DNA from: an uncultured Alphaproteobacteria bacterium
GTDB lineage: Bacteria; Pseudomonadota; Alphaproteobacteria; Rhizobiales; Xanthobacteraceae
Reading direction: 5' to 3'
NCBI GenBank assembly: GCA_963734185.1
Contig: CAVTGA010000001.1
Location: 386,711-450,710 of the forward strand
DNA length: 64,000 nt
A model generated the notes under the pieces. That model ran no database searches. It worked only from the letters and a program-made list of their open reading frames with translations, and was not told the origin of the DNA. Of the stretch, positions 15,394 to 28,143 are shown piece by piece. Made by a program: the position numbers and the translations under genes. Each line of letters starts with the position of its first letter. The first letter of the stretch is position 1.

Positions 15394-15735
15394 TTGGAGG
15401 ATCCGATGGACACGCTCGCGCGCGATGAAGACATCCTCAAAGCCGCCGAGGACTGGCGCAAGGCCGGGCGCGGCGTGGCGCTCGCGACCGTGGTCGAGAC
15501 CTGGGGCTCGGCGCCGCGGCCGGTCGGCTCCAACCTGGTGATCGACGACCAGGGCAATTTCCTCGGCTCGGTGTCGGGCGGTTGCGTCGAAGGAGCGGTC
15601 GTCACCGAGGCGCTCGACGTGATCGAGAGCGGCAAGCCGAAGACGTTGGAATTCGGCGTCGCCGACGAGGCCGCCTGGAAGGTCGGGCTCTCCTGCGGCG
15701 GCACCATCCGGGTGTTCGTCGAGAAAGTGGAGTAG
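15394..15735 (+). CDS. XdhC/CoxI-family protein (short, N-domain type)
   Basis: 113 aa containing the XdhC_CoxI motif (VALATVVETWGSAPRPVGSNLVIDDQGNFLGSVSGGCVE). Confidence 0.7.
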   Translation: MEDPMDTLARDEDILKAAEDWRKAGRGVALATVVETWGSAPRPVGSNLVIDDQGNFLGSVSGGCVEGAVVTEALDVIESGKPKTLEFGVADEAAWKVGLSCGGTIRVFVEKVE

Positions 15736-15759
15736 CGCCGTGAACGTGCCGCATGCTCC

Positions 15760-16165
15760 GCTTACCTCCCCCCTTGTGGGGGAGGCCGGCGCGCGAAGCG
15801 CGGCGGGAGGGGGACTTTCGTCAGCACGGAAGTTGACCCCCTCCCTAACCCTCCCCCACAAGGCAGGGCTATCGCATATGACGCCGTTGCTTTGGTTGTC
15901 GCGCCGAAAGCGCCACAGTACCTCCCCCCTTGTGGGGGAGGTCGACCGCCGGAGCCCGCAGGGCGACGGCGGGCGGGAGGGGGTCCGCTTTTCTTTGTCT
16001 GAGAAGGTTTTTCGTGCTTGTGGCGAGTCCCCCTCCGGCCTCGCTTCGCGAGGCCACCTCCCCCACAAGGGGGGAGGTACTGTGGCGCTTTCAGTGCCTA
16101 TTTCGTCACAGACACGGCGCTGCGTGTCATATGCGATAGCCCTCCCCCACAAGGGGGGAGGGGAC
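15760..16165. mobile_element. MITE-like nested palindromic insertion built from CCTCCCCC(TTGTG/CACAA)GGGGGAGG 20-mers
   Basis: At least five copies of the 20-bp palindrome occur in both orientations. They are arranged as nested long inverted repeats: gaaagcgccacagtacctcccccc…/…ggggggaggtactgtggcgctttc, and gctatcgcatatgacg…/…cgtgtcatatgcgatagc. The 151-aa ORF called across this region is not coding. Confidence 0.6.
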
Positions 16166-16191
16166 GCGCCGGCGTTTGCGGGGCGACCCTT

Positions 16192-16884
16192 GTGAAACTC
16201 GACATCCTCAAAGCCCTCAACGCCGAACGCGCGGCGCGGCGCGCGACGGTCGTCGTAACCGATCAGGACAGCGGCGCGCAGCGGCTGGTCACGCAAGACG
16301 GCATCGCCGGCGATCCCCTGAAGGACGTGCTCGAAGCCCATCTGCGCTCGGGCAAGAGCGGGATGGAAGAGACCGCGCAGGGCAAGGTCTTCCTCACCGT
16401 GCACGTGCCGCCGACGCGACTCGTCATCACCGGAGCCGTGCACATCAGCCAGGCGCTGGCGCCGATCGCCAGATTGCTCGGCTACGACGTCACCATCGTC
16501 GACCCGCGCACCGCGTTCGCCAGCATCGAGCGCTTTCCCGACGTGAAGGTGATCGCCGAATGGCCGGACACGGCGCTCCCCGCCCTCGGCATCGACCGCT
16601 ACACGGCGTTCGTCGCGCTCACCCACGATCCCAAGATCGACGATCCCGCGCTCACTCATGCGCTGGCGCGCGACTGCTTTTATATCGGCGCGCTCGGCTC
16701 GAAGAAGACGCACGGCCGCCGCCTCGAGCGCTTGAAGGAGCAAGGCGTGAGCGAAGCGCAGCTCGCGCGCATCCACGCGCCGATCGGGCTTGCCATCGGC
16801 GCGGTGTCGCCGGCCGAGATCGCACTCGCCATCATGGGCGAGATCACGGCGCGCCTGCGGCTTACAGCGGATGGCAAGCGATGA
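16192..16884 (+). CDS. XdhC-family protein (Rossmann-like C-domain type)
   Basis: XdhC_C-like sequence …RLVITGAVHISQALAPIARLLGYDVTIVDPR…ALTHDPKIDDPAL…. A GTG start at 16192 is inferred because the upstream part of the ORF is repeat DNA. Confidence 0.6.
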   Translation: MKLDILKALNAERAARRATVVVTDQDSGAQRLVTQDGIAGDPLKDVLEAHLRSGKSGMEETAQGKVFLTVHVPPTRLVITGAVHISQALAPIARLLGYDVTIVDPRTAFASIERFPDVKVIAEWPDTALPALGIDRYTAFVALTHDPKIDDPALTHALARDCFYIGALGSKKTHGRRLERLKEQGVSEAQLARIHAPIGLAIGAVSPAEIALAIMGEITARLRLTADGKR

Positions 16885-26045: not shown

Positions 26046-26971
26046 CCTCCCCCGACATCGCCATCGAAGTCGAGGGCCTGACCAAATCGTTCGGCGGCCG
26101 CACCGTGGTGCGCGATCTCTCGATGCGCGTGCGGCGCGGCACGATCTACGGCTTCCTCGGGCCGAACGGGTCGGGCAAGACCACCACCATCCGCATGCTG
26201 TGCGGCCTGCTCACGCCCGATGCCGGGCGCGGCACCTGCCTCGGCTACGACATCCGCACCGAGGCCGACAAGATCAAGGTGCATGTCGGCTACATGACGC
26301 AGCGCTTCAGCCTGTATCAGGATCTCTCGGTGCGCGAGAACCTGGAGTTCGTGGCGCGTGTCTACGGGCTCGGCGATCCGCAGGGCGCCGCGACCGCCAT
26401 GGTCGCGCGGCTCGGCCTCGACGGCCGCGAAGATCAACTCGCAGGCTCGCTTTCCGGCGGCTGGAAACAGCGGCTCGCGCTCGGCGCCTGCACCTTGCCG
26501 AGTCCGCAGCTGCTCCTGCTCGACGAGCCGACCGCGGGCGTCGATCCCAAGGCGCGGCGCGAGTTCTGGGCCGAGATCCATGCGCTCGCCCATGAGGGGC
26601 TGACCGTGCTGGTGTCGACCCATTACATGGACGAGGCCGAGCGCTGTCACGAGATCGCCTACATCGCCTACGGCGAGCTGCTCACGCATGGAACGGTCGA
26701 CGAGGTGGTGCGCGGCTCCGGCCTTCTCACCTATGACGTAAGCGGCGAAGGGCTGGCGCAACTCGGCGAGAAGCTGGAGCGGACGCCGGGCGTCGACATG
26801 GTGGCGCCGTTCGGCACCAGTCTGCACGTGTCGGGCCGTAACCGTGCCGCGCTCGATGCGGCGATTGCGCCCTACCGCGACGATCCCGCGCTCGCCTGGT
26901 CGACGGCCGAGCCTTCGCTCGAGGACGTGTTCATCGACCTGATGAGCCGCGCGCGGGACAATTTCCAATGA
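26042..26971 (+). CDS. ABC transporter ATP-binding protein
   Basis: Walker A (GPNGSGKTT), signature (LSGGWKQR) and Walker B (LLLDEP) motifs. Confidence 0.85.
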   Translation: MTSPDIAIEVEGLTKSFGGRTVVRDLSMRVRRGTIYGFLGPNGSGKTTTIRMLCGLLTPDAGRGTCLGYDIRTEADKIKVHVGYMTQRFSLYQDLSVRENLEFVARVYGLGDPQGAATAMVARLGLDGREDQLAGSLSGGWKQRLALGACTLPSPQLLLLDEPTAGVDPKARREFWAEIHALAHEGLTVLVSTHYMDEAERCHEIAYIAYGELLTHGTVDEVVRGSGLLTYDVSGEGLAQLGEKLERTPGVDMVAPFGTSLHVSGRNRAALDAAIAPYRDDPALAWSTAEPSLEDVFIDLMSRARDNFQ

Positions 26972-28143
26972 GCGCGACCCCACCCAACCCTCCCCCGCTT
27001 GCGCGGGAGGGAAAGGGAGGGGGCCGCTTCGGCTTCTTGCGCCGCGCCGGCGCCATGCTGCGCAAGGAGTTCCTGCAGCTGCGGCGCGACCGCATCACGT
27101 TCGCCACCATGATCTCGCTGCCGCTGATGCAACTGATTCTGTTCGGCTACGCCATCAACACCACGCCGCGCGACATGCCGACCGCGGTGCTGCTGCAGGA
27201 ATCGAGCGACGTCGGGCGTTCGATCCTCGCGGCGTTGCAGAACACCAAGTACTTCAAGGTGACGCACCAGGTGCGCGACACGGCGACGTTCGACCGCCTC
27301 CTGGCCTCGGGCCAGGTGCTGTTCGCAATCGAGATCCCGGCCAATTTCGAGCGCGCGCTGCGCCGCGGCGACAGGCCGGCGCTGCTGGTCGCGGCCGACG
27401 CCACCGATCCGGTCGCGACCGGCTCGGCCATGGGCGCGCTGACCCAGATCGTGCAGACCGCGCTGGCGCACGACCGCGCGCTGCCCGAAGCGGGCGCGCC
27501 GCTGTTCGAGATCCGCGCGCATGCGCGCTACAATCCCGGAGCCATCAGCCAGCTCAACATCGTGCCCGGCCTGCTCGGCACCATCCTCACCCTCACCATG
27601 CTGATATTCACCGCGCTCTCGGTCACGCGCGAGACCGAGCGCGGCACCATGGAGAGCCTCTTGGCGATGCCGATCTCGCCGCTCGAGATCATGCTCGGCA
27701 AGATCGCGCCCTACGTGCTGGTCGGCTTCCTCCAGGCGACCCTGATCCTGATCGCCGGCGTGCTGCTGTTCGGCGTGCCGGTGCTCGGAAACCTCGCGGT
27801 GCTGGCGCTGCTGACCACGCTGTTCATCGCGACAAACCTGTCGTTCGGCTACACGTTCTCGACCATCGCGCAGAACCAGCTGCAGGCGATCCAAATGGCG
27901 ATGATGTTCTTCCTGCCGAACCTGTTGCTCTCCGGCTTCGCGTTCCCCTTCCTCGGAATGCCGGTGTGGGCGCAGTGGATCGGCGAAGCGCTGCCGCTCA
28001 CCCACTTCATCCGTATCGTGCGCGCGATCATGCTGAAAGGCTCGAGCATCGCAGACCTGCAATACGACACCATCGTGCTGCTCGGCCTGATGCTGTTTGC
28101 GATGACGGTCGCGGTGACGCGGTTCAGGCGGACGCTCGATTGA
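26968..28143 (+). CDS. ABC-2 family transporter permease
   Basis: 391-aa protein with six helices of ABC-2 type, translationally coupled to the ATPase gene. Confidence 0.8.
   Translation: MSATPPNPPPLAREGKGGGRFGFLRRAGAMLRKEFLQLRRDRITFATMISLPLMQLILFGYAINTTPRDMPTAVLLQESSDVGRSILAALQNTKYFKVTHQVRDTATFDRLLASGQVLFAIEIPANFERALRRGDRPALLVAADATDPVATGSAMGALTQIVQTALAHDRALPEAGAPLFEIRAHARYNPGAISQLNIVPGLLGTILTLTMLIFTALSVTRETERGTMESLLAMPISPLEIMLGKIAPYVLVGFLQATLILIAGVLLFGVPVLGNLAVLALLTTLFIATNLSFGYTFSTIAQNQLQAIQMAMMFFLPNLLLSGFAFPFLGMPVWAQWIGEALPLTHFIRIVRAIMLKGSSIADLQYDTIVLLGLMLFAMTVAVTRFRRTLD

What the first reader, a model, noticed from the sequence alone, without database searches (positions are those of the whole stretch)
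15760..16165. Roughly 400-bp nested palindromic MITE-like element inserted between the two XdhC-family genes
The element is built from CCTCCCCC(TTGTG/CACAA)GGGGGAGG 20-mers in both orientations plus two longer nested inverted-repeat pairs. It could fold into a large cruciform or stem-loop. It separates the short XdhC (CoxI-like) gene from the XdhC C-domain gene and creates a spurious 151-aa ORF. It may influence transcript processing or stability within the maturation operon, or it may mark a recombination hot spot.
Basis: seen in the sequence. Interest (0 to 1): 0.5.

Follow-up and report, generated by a model that had tools for sequence, protein, structure and literature searches.

The report
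MITE nested inside a palindromic repeat
The 400-bp palindromic block between the two xdhC genes is real junk-DNA layering: a pair of widespread C/G-rich 'triplex-motif' hairpin repeats, one of which was later split by a 285-bp miniature transposon that targets such hairpins, and both kinds of element are already known.

Summary
The block is not one element but three nested layers of two known kinds.

1. Outer layer: an inverted doublet of C/G-rich hairpin repeats. Each has a one-sided third arm that mirrors the G arm. This is the BoxC/PIT/TMECO 'intrastrand triplex motif' architecture. The exact 21-mer occurs in at least 120 contigs from many phyla.

2. Middle layer: a 285-bp MITE (15862-16146) sits at the axis of the right-hand hairpin.
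- Its 19-bp inverted repeats are those of a ~1.2-kb ISAs1-family IS. The closest named relative is ISRm21 of S. meliloti.
- It carries a 6-bp target duplication, CCACAA.
- ISRm22 and ISRm21 are already known to insert at the axis of REP palindromes with 6-bp repeats.

3. Inner layer: the MITE carries a second hairpin doublet.

Relatives show all three states:
- Stop and start codons abut in four loci.
- One locus (L245) has the doublet alone. It is an exact empty site for the MITE.
- The window has doublet plus MITE.

The 151-aa ORF is spurious. Effects on the operon are inferred only. This is a well-resolved but ordinary case: a new member of known kinds.

The parts
15406..15735 (+). Upstream gene, XdhC_CoxI (109 aa). 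Its stop codon TAG is at 15733-15735.
   Evidence: Pfam PF02625, E = 7.5e-27. Relatives have the same gene directly abutting the next one.
15736..15762 (.). Left non-repeat flank of the insertion. It includes GTGAA (15740-15744), a possible duplicate of the start-codon region of gene 2.
   Evidence: It aligns with the L245 spacer. It is absent from the 0-nt relatives. GTGAA recurs at 16192-16196.
15765..15813 (+). Triplex-motif unit U1, read on the + strand. C arm 15765-15773, loop TTGT, G arm 15778-15785, GC hairpin 15786-15804, mirror G arm 15805-15813. It is the left half of the outer doublet.
   Evidence: It folds as two adjacent hairpins with a free third arm. The same unit is present in L245.
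15836..15861 (+). Left part of the split target unit: third (mirror) C arm 15836-15845, TAA, C arm 15849-15857, loop ACAA. The left copy of the target duplication, CCACAA, is at 15856-15861.
   Evidence: 27-nt exact matches to the family in many genomes. The unit is intact in L245.
15862..16146 (.). 285-bp MITE derived from an ISAs1-family IS. IR-L 15862-15880 is GGCAGGGCTATCGCATATG. IR-R 16128-16146 is CATATGCGATAGCCCTCCC (1 mismatch). Both ends are of the 'right end' type, which carries the transposase stop codon.
   Evidence: The IRs are identical to those of the full-length IS in L144 and other loci. 6-bp TSD. Empty site in L245. DNA fold -114 kcal/mol, z = -13.6.
15901..16097 (.). Inner triplex-motif doublet carried by the MITE: U2 15921-15983 (read on the + strand) and U3 16029-16077 (read on the - strand). 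Each has a GC hairpin in place of loop 2. The arms extend to 15901-15920 and 16078-16097.
   Evidence: The same IR / unit(-) / unit(+) / IR layout occurs in L028, Bauldia sp..
16147..16163 (+). Right part of the split target unit: the right copy of the target duplication, CCACAA (16147-16152), and the G arm GGGGGGAGGGG (16153-16163).
   Evidence: It is contiguous with the left part in L245.
16164..16191 (.). Right non-repeat flank of the insertion, with a GGGG run 8 nt upstream of the GTG (a possible weak ribosome-binding site).
   Evidence: It aligns with L245. Read directly from the sequence.
16192..16884 (+). Downstream gene, XdhC_C (230 aa), GTG start.
   Evidence: 100% identical 230-aa protein P0001. 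Pfam PF13478, E = 1e-44.
15740..16195 (+). 151-aa ORF made entirely of repeat sequence. It is spurious.
   Evidence: No Pfam family. It cannot exist in relatives that lack the insertion.

Best explanation
The block is a three-layer nest of non-coding repeats, built by at least two successive insertions into a junction where the two xdhC genes originally abutted.

Step 1 (shown). A roughly 160-nt segment carrying an inverted doublet of C/G-rich hairpin units entered between the stop of xdhC-N and the start of xdhC-C.
- Each unit has a C arm, a loop and a G arm.
- Each also has a one-sided third arm that is the mirror image of the G arm.
- This is the architecture of BoxC/PIT/TMECO 'intrastrand triplex motifs'.

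Step 2 (shown). A 285-bp MITE transposed into the axis of the right-hand hairpin and duplicated the 6 bp CCACAA.
- Its ends are those of an ISRm21-like ISAs1-family insertion sequence.
- The family's DDE transposase, supplied in trans, puts the element at the palindrome axis. This is inferred from the behaviour of the full-length copies.
- The IR tips (GGCAGGG / CCCTGCC) resemble the hairpin arms, so each junction regenerates a near-perfect hairpin.

The MITE itself carries a second hairpin doublet. Whether that doublet was acquired before or after the MITE formed is unknown.

Consequence (inferred, not shown). Translational coupling of the two xdhC genes is lost. In its place is a 456-nt, extremely structured spacer that could impede or stabilise the transcript. 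How the hairpin doublets themselves spread is not known.
For: Repeats are real and non-random.

Allelic series in relatives:
- Four relatives have stop|start abutting, and one has a 33-nt spacer.
- L245 has the doublet alone.
- The window spacer minus 15862-16152 aligns end to end with the L245 spacer.

IS identity:
- The L144 ORF of 367 aa hits PF13808 (3e-27) and PF01609 (7e-16).
- It is 53% identical to ISRm21-annotated ISAs1 transposases.
- ISRm21 on pSymB has the same IRs and sits in a hairpin with TSD CGCAAG.

Census of IR pairs in the fetched loci:
- 59 inverted IR pairs have enough flanking sequence on both sides to be scored. About 20 are full length (1.16-1.21 kb) and about 36 are of 77-310 bp.
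- The TSD is 6 bp in 21 of the 25 with matching flanks.
- 93 of 119 IR tips abut a C-rich arm, against 5% of random windows.

Literature: all 9 chromosomal copies and the pSymB copy of ISRm22, and 2 of 3 copies of ISRm21, lie in S. meliloti REPs. For ISRm22, 6-bp repeats at the palindrome axis are described (PMC1525189).

Triplex-motif architecture:
- The third arm lies within 20 nt on one side in 112 of 136 copies and on the other side in 1 of 136. Random expectation is 2.7%.
- The family is described in PMC4666352.
Against: - The source genome could not be retrieved. Genome-wide copy numbers and the presence of an autonomous IS partner are therefore unknown, and no transposase lies in the 64-kb window.
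- The order 'doublet first, MITE second' rests on one relative (L245).
- L122, at 93% protein identity, lacks the doublet, while L245, at 91%, has it. So either loss or recombination also occurred.
- 34 of the 59 IR pairs lack matching flanks. This needs recombination between copies to explain it.
- Nothing here measures any effect on expression.
Confidence: 0.82

Rival explanations
1. The whole 15760-16165 block is one ~400-bp MITE whose terminal inverted repeats are the 20/21-mers.
For: The outermost 21-mers, 15765-15785 and 16141-16161, are 100% complementary (pair I4). The whole block folds as one long stem.
Against: - L245 carries the outer part without the inner 291 bp.
- The right-hand 'terminal' 21-mer is a chimera of MITE tip, TSD and target arm.
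- No target duplication flanks the 21-mers.
- Only the hairpin cores, and none of the spacers, recur in 120 other loci.
Confidence: 0.05
2. The hairpin doublets are REPINs, meaning inverted REP pairs copied by a REP-associated tyrosine transposase (RAYT). The block would then be a BIME-like REP cluster.
For: - The units are short palindromes.
- They commonly occur as inverted pairs 70-180 bp apart in other genomes.
- Several copies per genome are seen in other organisms (L041; L046 with L076; L017 with L048).
Against: - There is no GTAG or CGTC tag next to the palindrome (families in PMC3733652).
- The only RAYT homologue in 1.5 Mb of fetched loci (L014, 49% identical to E. coli RayT) is flanked by a different, GTAG-type REP.
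- The E. coli members of the triplex-motif class were reported to have no link to mobile-element genes (PMC4666352).
- An identical 21-mer across phyla is unlike the lineage-specific REPs of RAYT systems.
Confidence: 0.1
3. The block is a selected cis-acting RNA element of the maturation operon (processing site, stabiliser or attenuator) rather than selfish DNA.
For: The predicted RNA stability is extreme. Three weak terminator-like sites lie on the + strand inside the MITE, against 0.8 expected.
Against: - It is absent from five relatives that have the same gene order.
- The units occur in both orientations.
- There is no Rfam family. The best match is whalefall-1 at 17-21 bits, against a gathering score of 37.
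- The E. coli relatives of the motif showed no promoter or terminator activity (Hoyne & Maher 2002, as cited in PMC4666352).
Confidence: 0.05

Closest known systems
ISRm22 / ISRm21 of Sinorhizobium meliloti (ISAs1-like IS that insert into REP palindromes; Tobes & Pareja 2006, PMC1525189)
   Same: - Same terminal repeats (GGCAGGG..ATCGCAT), seen directly in the pSymB ISRm21 copy.
- Same 6-bp duplication.
- Same insertion point at the axis of a C/G-rich palindrome.
- Some copies lack matching repeats, which that paper attributes to recombination between copies.
   Different: - The window holds a 285-bp non-autonomous derivative with no transposase gene and with two 'right-end' type IRs.
- The autonomous relatives found here are only 53% identical in protein to ISRm21.
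- MITE derivatives of this IS group were not found in the searchable literature.
BoxC / PIT elements / TMECO intrastrand triplex motifs (Hoyne & Maher 2000, 2002; Holder et al. 2015, PMC4666352)
   Same: - C arm, loop, G arm, 3-nt loop (often TTA) and a second G arm able to lie antiparallel on the first.
- Intergenic and multi-copy.
- Often in palindromic pairs.
- Associated with local structural variability.
- No known mobilising enzyme.
   Different: - The third arm here is GGGAGGGGG, the exact mirror of GGGGGAGGG. It does not fit the TMECO pattern GGGNGAGGG.
- Three of the four units in the window replace the 3-nt second loop with a 19-33-nt GC hairpin.
- The host range seen here extends well beyond Proteobacteria.
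REPINs and BIMEs (REP doublets and mosaic REP clusters)
   Same: Inverted doublets of short palindromes that form long hairpins, clustered in an intergenic spacer inside an operon.
   Different: There is no GTAG/CGTC tag and no RAYT association was found. There is an extra one-sided mirror arm. The sequence is conserved across phyla.
Other REP-targeting IS (IS1397, ISKpn1, IS621, ISPpu9/10, ISPa11)
   Same: Mobile elements that use host palindromic repeats as specific landing sites.
   Different: Those belong to the IS3 and IS110 families and use other mechanisms (for IS110, a guide RNA). The element here is a DDE ISAs1-family element with classical IRs and a TSD.

Membership tests
MITE derived from an ISAs1-family IS (ISRm21/22-like) | Terminal inverted repeats that match those of an autonomous IS | tested here: met
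   IR-L (15862-15880) is identical to the right IR of the 1.2-kb IS in L144 and about 20 other full-length copies. IR-R has 1 mismatch.
MITE derived from an ISAs1-family IS (ISRm21/22-like) | Target-site duplication of the length made by the parent IS | tested here: met
   CCACAA lies on both sides of the MITE. A 6-bp TSD is seen in 21 of the 25 elements with matching flanks, and 6 bp is reported for ISRm22.
MITE derived from an ISAs1-family IS (ISRm21/22-like) | Small size and no transposase gene | tested here: met
   285 bp. There is no Pfam hit in the overlapping ORF and no tblastn hit to the transposase.
MITE derived from an ISAs1-family IS (ISRm21/22-like) | Empty site in a relative | tested here: met
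   L245 has the uninterrupted hairpin with a single CCACAA. Its flanks align with the window.
MITE derived from an ISAs1-family IS (ISRm21/22-like) | Other copies, and an autonomous partner, in the same genome | not testable with these tools
   The source genome was not retrievable. In other organisms, about 36 IR pairs of 77-310 bp were found.
Intrastrand triplex motif (BoxC / PIT / TM, class II) | Three consecutive arms: a pyrimidine arm, a complementary purine arm, and a second purine arm that can pair antiparallel to the first | tested here: met
   All four units in the window have this architecture (read directly). It is one-sided in 112 of 136 family copies against 1 of 136 on the other side.
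Intrastrand triplex motif (BoxC / PIT / TM, class II) | Fit to the TMECO consensus CCCTCNCCC N3-6 GGGNGAGGG N3 GGGNGAGGG | tested here: not met
   Arms 1 and 2 fit. Arm 3 is GGGAGGGGG, with the A at position 4 rather than 6 (one search read). It is a sibling of TMECO, not TMECO itself.
Intrastrand triplex motif (BoxC / PIT / TM, class II) | Short loops (1-6 nt in ITxF; 0-10 nt in Hoyne et al.) | tested here: inconclusive
   The criterion is met by the split unit and by its intact copy in L245 (loops of 4 and 3 nt). It is not met by U1, U2 and U3, whose second loop is a 19-33-nt GC hairpin.
Intrastrand triplex motif (BoxC / PIT / TM, class II) | Actual triplex formation by the single strand | not testable with these tools
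   This needs CD or NMR. It was shown in vitro for the E. coli motif but not detected in vivo.
REP / REPIN-RAYT system | A conserved GTAG or CGTC tag adjoining the palindrome | tested here: not met
   The flanks are TA/GTA..., TAA or GC hairpins. Tag families are described in PMC3733652.
REP / REPIN-RAYT system | A RAYT gene flanked by the same repeats | tested here: inconclusive
   One RAYT was found in 1.5 Mb of loci (L014). It is flanked by a different REP. The source genome was not available.
Rfam whalefall-1 RNA (RF01762) | Score at or above the gathering threshold | tested here: not met
   16.6-21 bits against a gathering score of 37.

The most novel reading that the evidence does not exclude
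The C/G-rich three-arm hairpins may be more than passive junk. They could be a cross-phylum, structure-defined 'landing pad' system.
- The same 21-mer and the same mirror third arm persist from Alphaproteobacteria to Planctomycetota, Elusimicrobia and Chloroflexi.
- A covarying GC hairpin can replace loop 2.
- ISAs1-family transposases, whose IR tips mimic the hairpin arm, recognise an extruded non-B structure (cruciform or triplex) at the axis.

If so, the repeats would channel IS and MITE insertions into harmless intergenic sites. They would then be maintained by the host, or by an as yet unknown mobilising activity.
Probability: 0.15. Interest if true: 0.6.

Novelty: new member of a known kind. 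Interest (0 to 1): 0.3.

Why it matters
The locus is a clean natural time series. Relatives show three states: abutting genes, then a hairpin doublet, then a doublet plus MITE. The series shows directly that triplex-motif/REP-like hairpins act as insertion targets for ISAs1-family elements, and how 'nested palindromes' build up in soil alphaproteobacteria.

Practical consequences:
- Such blocks generate spurious ORFs.
- They break translational coupling inside operons.
- They are likely to confuse annotation and assembly.

The locus does not reveal a new mechanism. Three side observations are modest leads rather than discoveries:
- the wide host range of the exact 21-mer;
- the variant with a hairpin in loop 2;
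- MITEs built from two right ends.

Tried and rejected
- Exact look-ups of window proteins to fetch the source genome failed. Cluster look-up gave no names.
- Rfam gave only sub-threshold whalefall-1 hits and meaningless plant miRNA hits on the long hairpin.
- I first read 15850-15870 as a degenerate fifth hairpin. That was rejected when its right half proved to be a conserved IS end.
- I considered a G-quadruplex on the G strand (GGGGGAGGGTTAGGGAGGGGGG fits the G4 pattern). I set it aside because NMR on the E. coli relatives showed a triplex, not a G4, and because the units in the window have only GG in the second tract.
- Alternative Watson-Crick pairing of the third arm with the C arm was rejected. 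The A/T position fits a mirror register, not a complementary one.
- A RAYT link was sought and not found.
- The spacers of the block have no matches in 120 genome loci, so there is no larger shared element.
- A literature search for the sequence itself found nothing. A search with the third-arm junction found the triplex paper.
- No paper on ISRm21/22-derived MITEs was found.

Full report
**Observation**

- The 21-mer CCTCCCCCACAAGGGGGGAGG occurs exactly four times, twice on each strand, between 15765 and 16161. It occurs nowhere else in the 64-kb window, and none is expected by chance.
- The repeat finder adds an altered fifth copy at 15850-15870.
- It also finds three long inverted-repeat pairs: 54 nt at 89%, 55 nt at 85% and 21 nt at 95% complementarity.
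- The spacer folds far better than shuffles, at -317 kcal/mol as RNA and -172 kcal/mol as DNA, with z about -15.

The block lies between an XdhC_CoxI gene (15406-15735) and an XdhC_C gene. The GTG start of the second gene, at 16192, is fixed by a 100% identical 230-aa database protein. The 151-aa ORF 15740-16195 has no family match.

**The 21-mer belongs to a widespread repeat family**

- Hosts include Bradyrhizobium, Devosia, Microvirga, Rhodoplanes, Hyphomicrobium and Sphingomonas.
- Hosts also include Planctomycetota, Elusimicrobia, Dehalococcoidia, Omnitrophica, Gemmatimonadales, and gamma- and deltaproteobacteria.
- Copies often come as inverted pairs 70-180 bp apart.

Aligning the flanks shows that the hairpin is only part of the unit. 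On the C-rich strand it is preceded by a second C-rich arm, as in ACCCCCCTCCC-TAA-CCCTCCCCC-ACAA-GGGGGGAGGG.
- This third arm lies within 20 nt on that side in 112 of 136 copies.
- It lies on the other side in 1 of 136 copies, and random 20-nt windows have such an arm 2.7% of the time.
- It is the mirror image, not the complement, of the neighbouring arm.
- The odd base is T or A in the mirror position, and the arm lengths co-vary, most often 3/3/3.

Read on the G strand, the unit is pyrimidine arm, loop, purine arm, TTA, mirror purine arm. That is the layout of an intrastrand purine-motif triplex.

A literature search with the junction sequence led to Holder et al. 2015 (PMC4666352). They describe this class as BoxC, PIT elements or TMECO.
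- Their consensus is CCCTCNCCC N3-6 GGGNGAGGG N3 GGGNGAGGG.
- They found 3610 copies in 262 proteobacterial genomes.
- The motif forms a triplex as single-stranded DNA in vitro, but this was not detected in vivo.
- It has no promoter or terminator activity and no link to mobile-element genes.
- It is associated with local genomic variability.

The motif here fits arms 1 and 2 of that pattern. Its third arm is GGGAGGGGG, so it is a sibling rather than TMECO itself.

Three of the units in the window (U1, U2, U3) replace the TTA loop with a 19-33-nt GC hairpin. Each folds as two adjacent hairpins, leaving the third arm free. About 55 further copies of this layout occur in the fetched loci. Their linker stems differ in sequence but always pair. 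This variant lies outside the loop limits of the published searches.

**The 'degenerate fifth copy' is a transposon end**

Only the hairpin cores of the block recur in the 120 genome loci. The spacers do not. The one exception is GGCAGGGCTATCGCATATGAC (15862-15882) and its inverted copy (16126-16146). These recur in Bradyrhizobium macuxiense (L021) and in a Bauldia MAG (L028). L028 has the same layout as the window: IR, unit(-), unit(+), IR.

- Outside the 19-mer there is almost always a C-rich arm plus a variable loop. This holds for 93 of 119 copies, against 5% of random windows.
- Inside it, in 39 of 99 copies, lies the end of a gene finishing ...HMR*, whose stop codon is within the repeat.

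In L144 the full element is about 1.2 kb and encodes a 367-aa protein with PF13808 and PF01609 domains. It is bounded by GGCAGGGGAATCGCATATG and CATATGCGATAGCCCTGCC. It sits in a hairpin, CCCTCCCC|CTCCAG|GGGAGGG, with CTCCAG on both sides.

The protein is 53% identical to transposases annotated as ISAs1-like ISRm21. The ISRm21 copy on S. meliloti pSymB has the same ends and lies in a hairpin with TSD CGCAAG.

The census covers the 59 inverted IR pairs that have enough flanking sequence on both sides to be scored.
- About 20 are full length (1.16-1.21 kb) and about 36 measure 77-310 bp.
- The duplication is 6 bp in 21 of the 25 with identical flanks.

This behaviour is already published. Tobes & Pareja 2006 found all copies of ISRm22, and 2 of 3 copies of ISRm21, inside S. 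meliloti REPs. For ISRm22 they describe 6-bp direct repeats at the palindrome axis. Some copies lacked matching repeats, which they ascribed to recombination between copies (PMC1525189).

**Anatomy of the window**

The MITE spans 15862-16146 (285 bp).
- IR-L is at 15862-15880.
- IR-R is at 16128-16146, with one mismatch: CCCTCCC instead of CCCTGCC.
- CCACAA lies at 15856-15861 and again at 16147-16152.
- Both IRs are of the right-end type.

Removing the MITE and one CCACAA restores a perfect short-loop unit, GACCCCCTCCC-TAA-CCCTCCCCC-ACAA-GGGGGGAGGGG. With U1 (15765-15813) this forms an ordinary inverted doublet.

The IR tips resemble the hairpin arm, so each junction regenerates a hairpin.

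Inside the MITE is a second doublet, U2 (15921-15983) and U3 (16029-16077), with extended arms. No transposase of this IS lies in the window.

**Relatives give the history**

- Four loci with gene-2 proteins 89-93% identical have the stop codon directly abutting the start codon (L122, L246, L247, L249). One locus (L121) has a 33-nt spacer with a GGAGG.
- L245, at 91% identity, has a 171-nt spacer containing the outer doublet intact, with a single CCACAA and no MITE.
- The window spacer minus 15862-16152 aligns with the L245 spacer from end to end.

This is an empty site for the MITE, and it shows that the doublet came first. L122 (93%) lacks the doublet while L245 (91%) has it, so loss or recombination has also occurred.

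The whole insertion is bracketed by GTGAA (15740-15744 and 16192-16196; GTGAA/GTGAG in L245). This may be a short duplication of the start-codon region. The evidence is weak. It would explain why the spurious ORF starts where it does.

**Mechanism**

Shown:
- There are two nested insertions of two different repeat kinds.
- The MITE has the ends, the duplication length and the target preference of ISRm21/22-like ISAs1 elements.

Inferred:
- The MITE was moved in trans by such a transposase.
- The enzyme recognises the palindrome, possibly as an extruded structure, helped by the likeness between IR tips and hairpin arms.

Unknown: how the three-arm hairpin doublets themselves spread. A RAYT was sought. 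The only one in 1.5 Mb of fetched DNA (L014, 49% identical to E. coli RayT) is flanked by a different, GTAG-type REP.

Consequences for the operon are inferred only.
- Translational coupling is lost.
- A 456-nt, highly structured spacer now precedes xdhC-C.
- No sigma-70-like promoter is present, and three weak terminator-like sites lie inside the MITE.

**Verdict**

The block resolves into known kinds: a BoxC/PIT-type hairpin doublet, and a MITE of a REP-targeting ISAs1 family. It is a new member of known kinds and of modest interest. Its value lies in the unusually complete allelic series, and in a few leads: the cross-phylum identity of the hairpin, the variant with a hairpin in loop 2, and MITEs with two right ends.

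Noticed in passing
window 26975-27024: A second, diverged member of the hairpin family: CCCCACCC-AAC-CCTCCCCC-GCTTGCGC-GGGAGGG-AAA-GGGAGGGGG. It lies just after the ATGA stop/start overlap of an ABC ATPase gene and an ABC-2 permease ORF (26968-28143). If the ATG at 26968 is used, it encodes residues 3-19 of the permease. An alternative start is the ATG at 27056.
   Followed up: partly
window 15740-15744 and 16192-16196; L245 around 663-667 and 830-834: GTGAA brackets the whole insertion (GTGAA/GTGAG in L245). It may be a short target duplication that copied the start codon of xdhC-C. The spurious 151-aa ORF starts at the left copy.
   Followed up: partly
window 16128-16146: The right IR tip of the MITE reads CCCTCCC instead of the family's CCCTGCC. 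This makes the junction a perfect copy of the 21-mer hairpin. More generally, the IS tips resemble the arms of their target.
   Followed up: partly
L066 1-130 and L077 6060-6125 (Planctomycetota MAGs): The same hairpin occurs as head-to-tail tandem arrays with a period of 35-36 nt, rather than as inverted doublets.
   Followed up: no
L014 2860-3715: A RAYT gene (49% identical to E. coli RayT) is flanked by inverted GTAG-type REPs (GTAGGGCGCGCAAAATCGCCC...). It is a separate REP system in a genome that also carries the C/G hairpin.
   Followed up: partly
L174, L187, L192, L194, L214, L218, L225 and others, just inside the IS end: Many short elements with the same IR carry a CGTC-type REP (GTCGTCCCTGCGAACGCAGGGAC) instead of transposase sequence. 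So MITEs of this family have picked up different host palindromes as cargo.
   Followed up: no
L233 505-1699: A full-length IS copy sits in a hairpin-in-loop-2 unit with the same duplication, CCACAA. Its flank, GGAGGTACTGCGGCGCTGTC, is almost identical to window 16073-16092. So the inner doublet type of the window is itself a target elsewhere.
   Followed up: partly
window 15968-15999: There are terminator-like stems followed by TTTTCTTTGT on the + strand inside the MITE: 3 sites against 0.8 expected.
   Followed up: no
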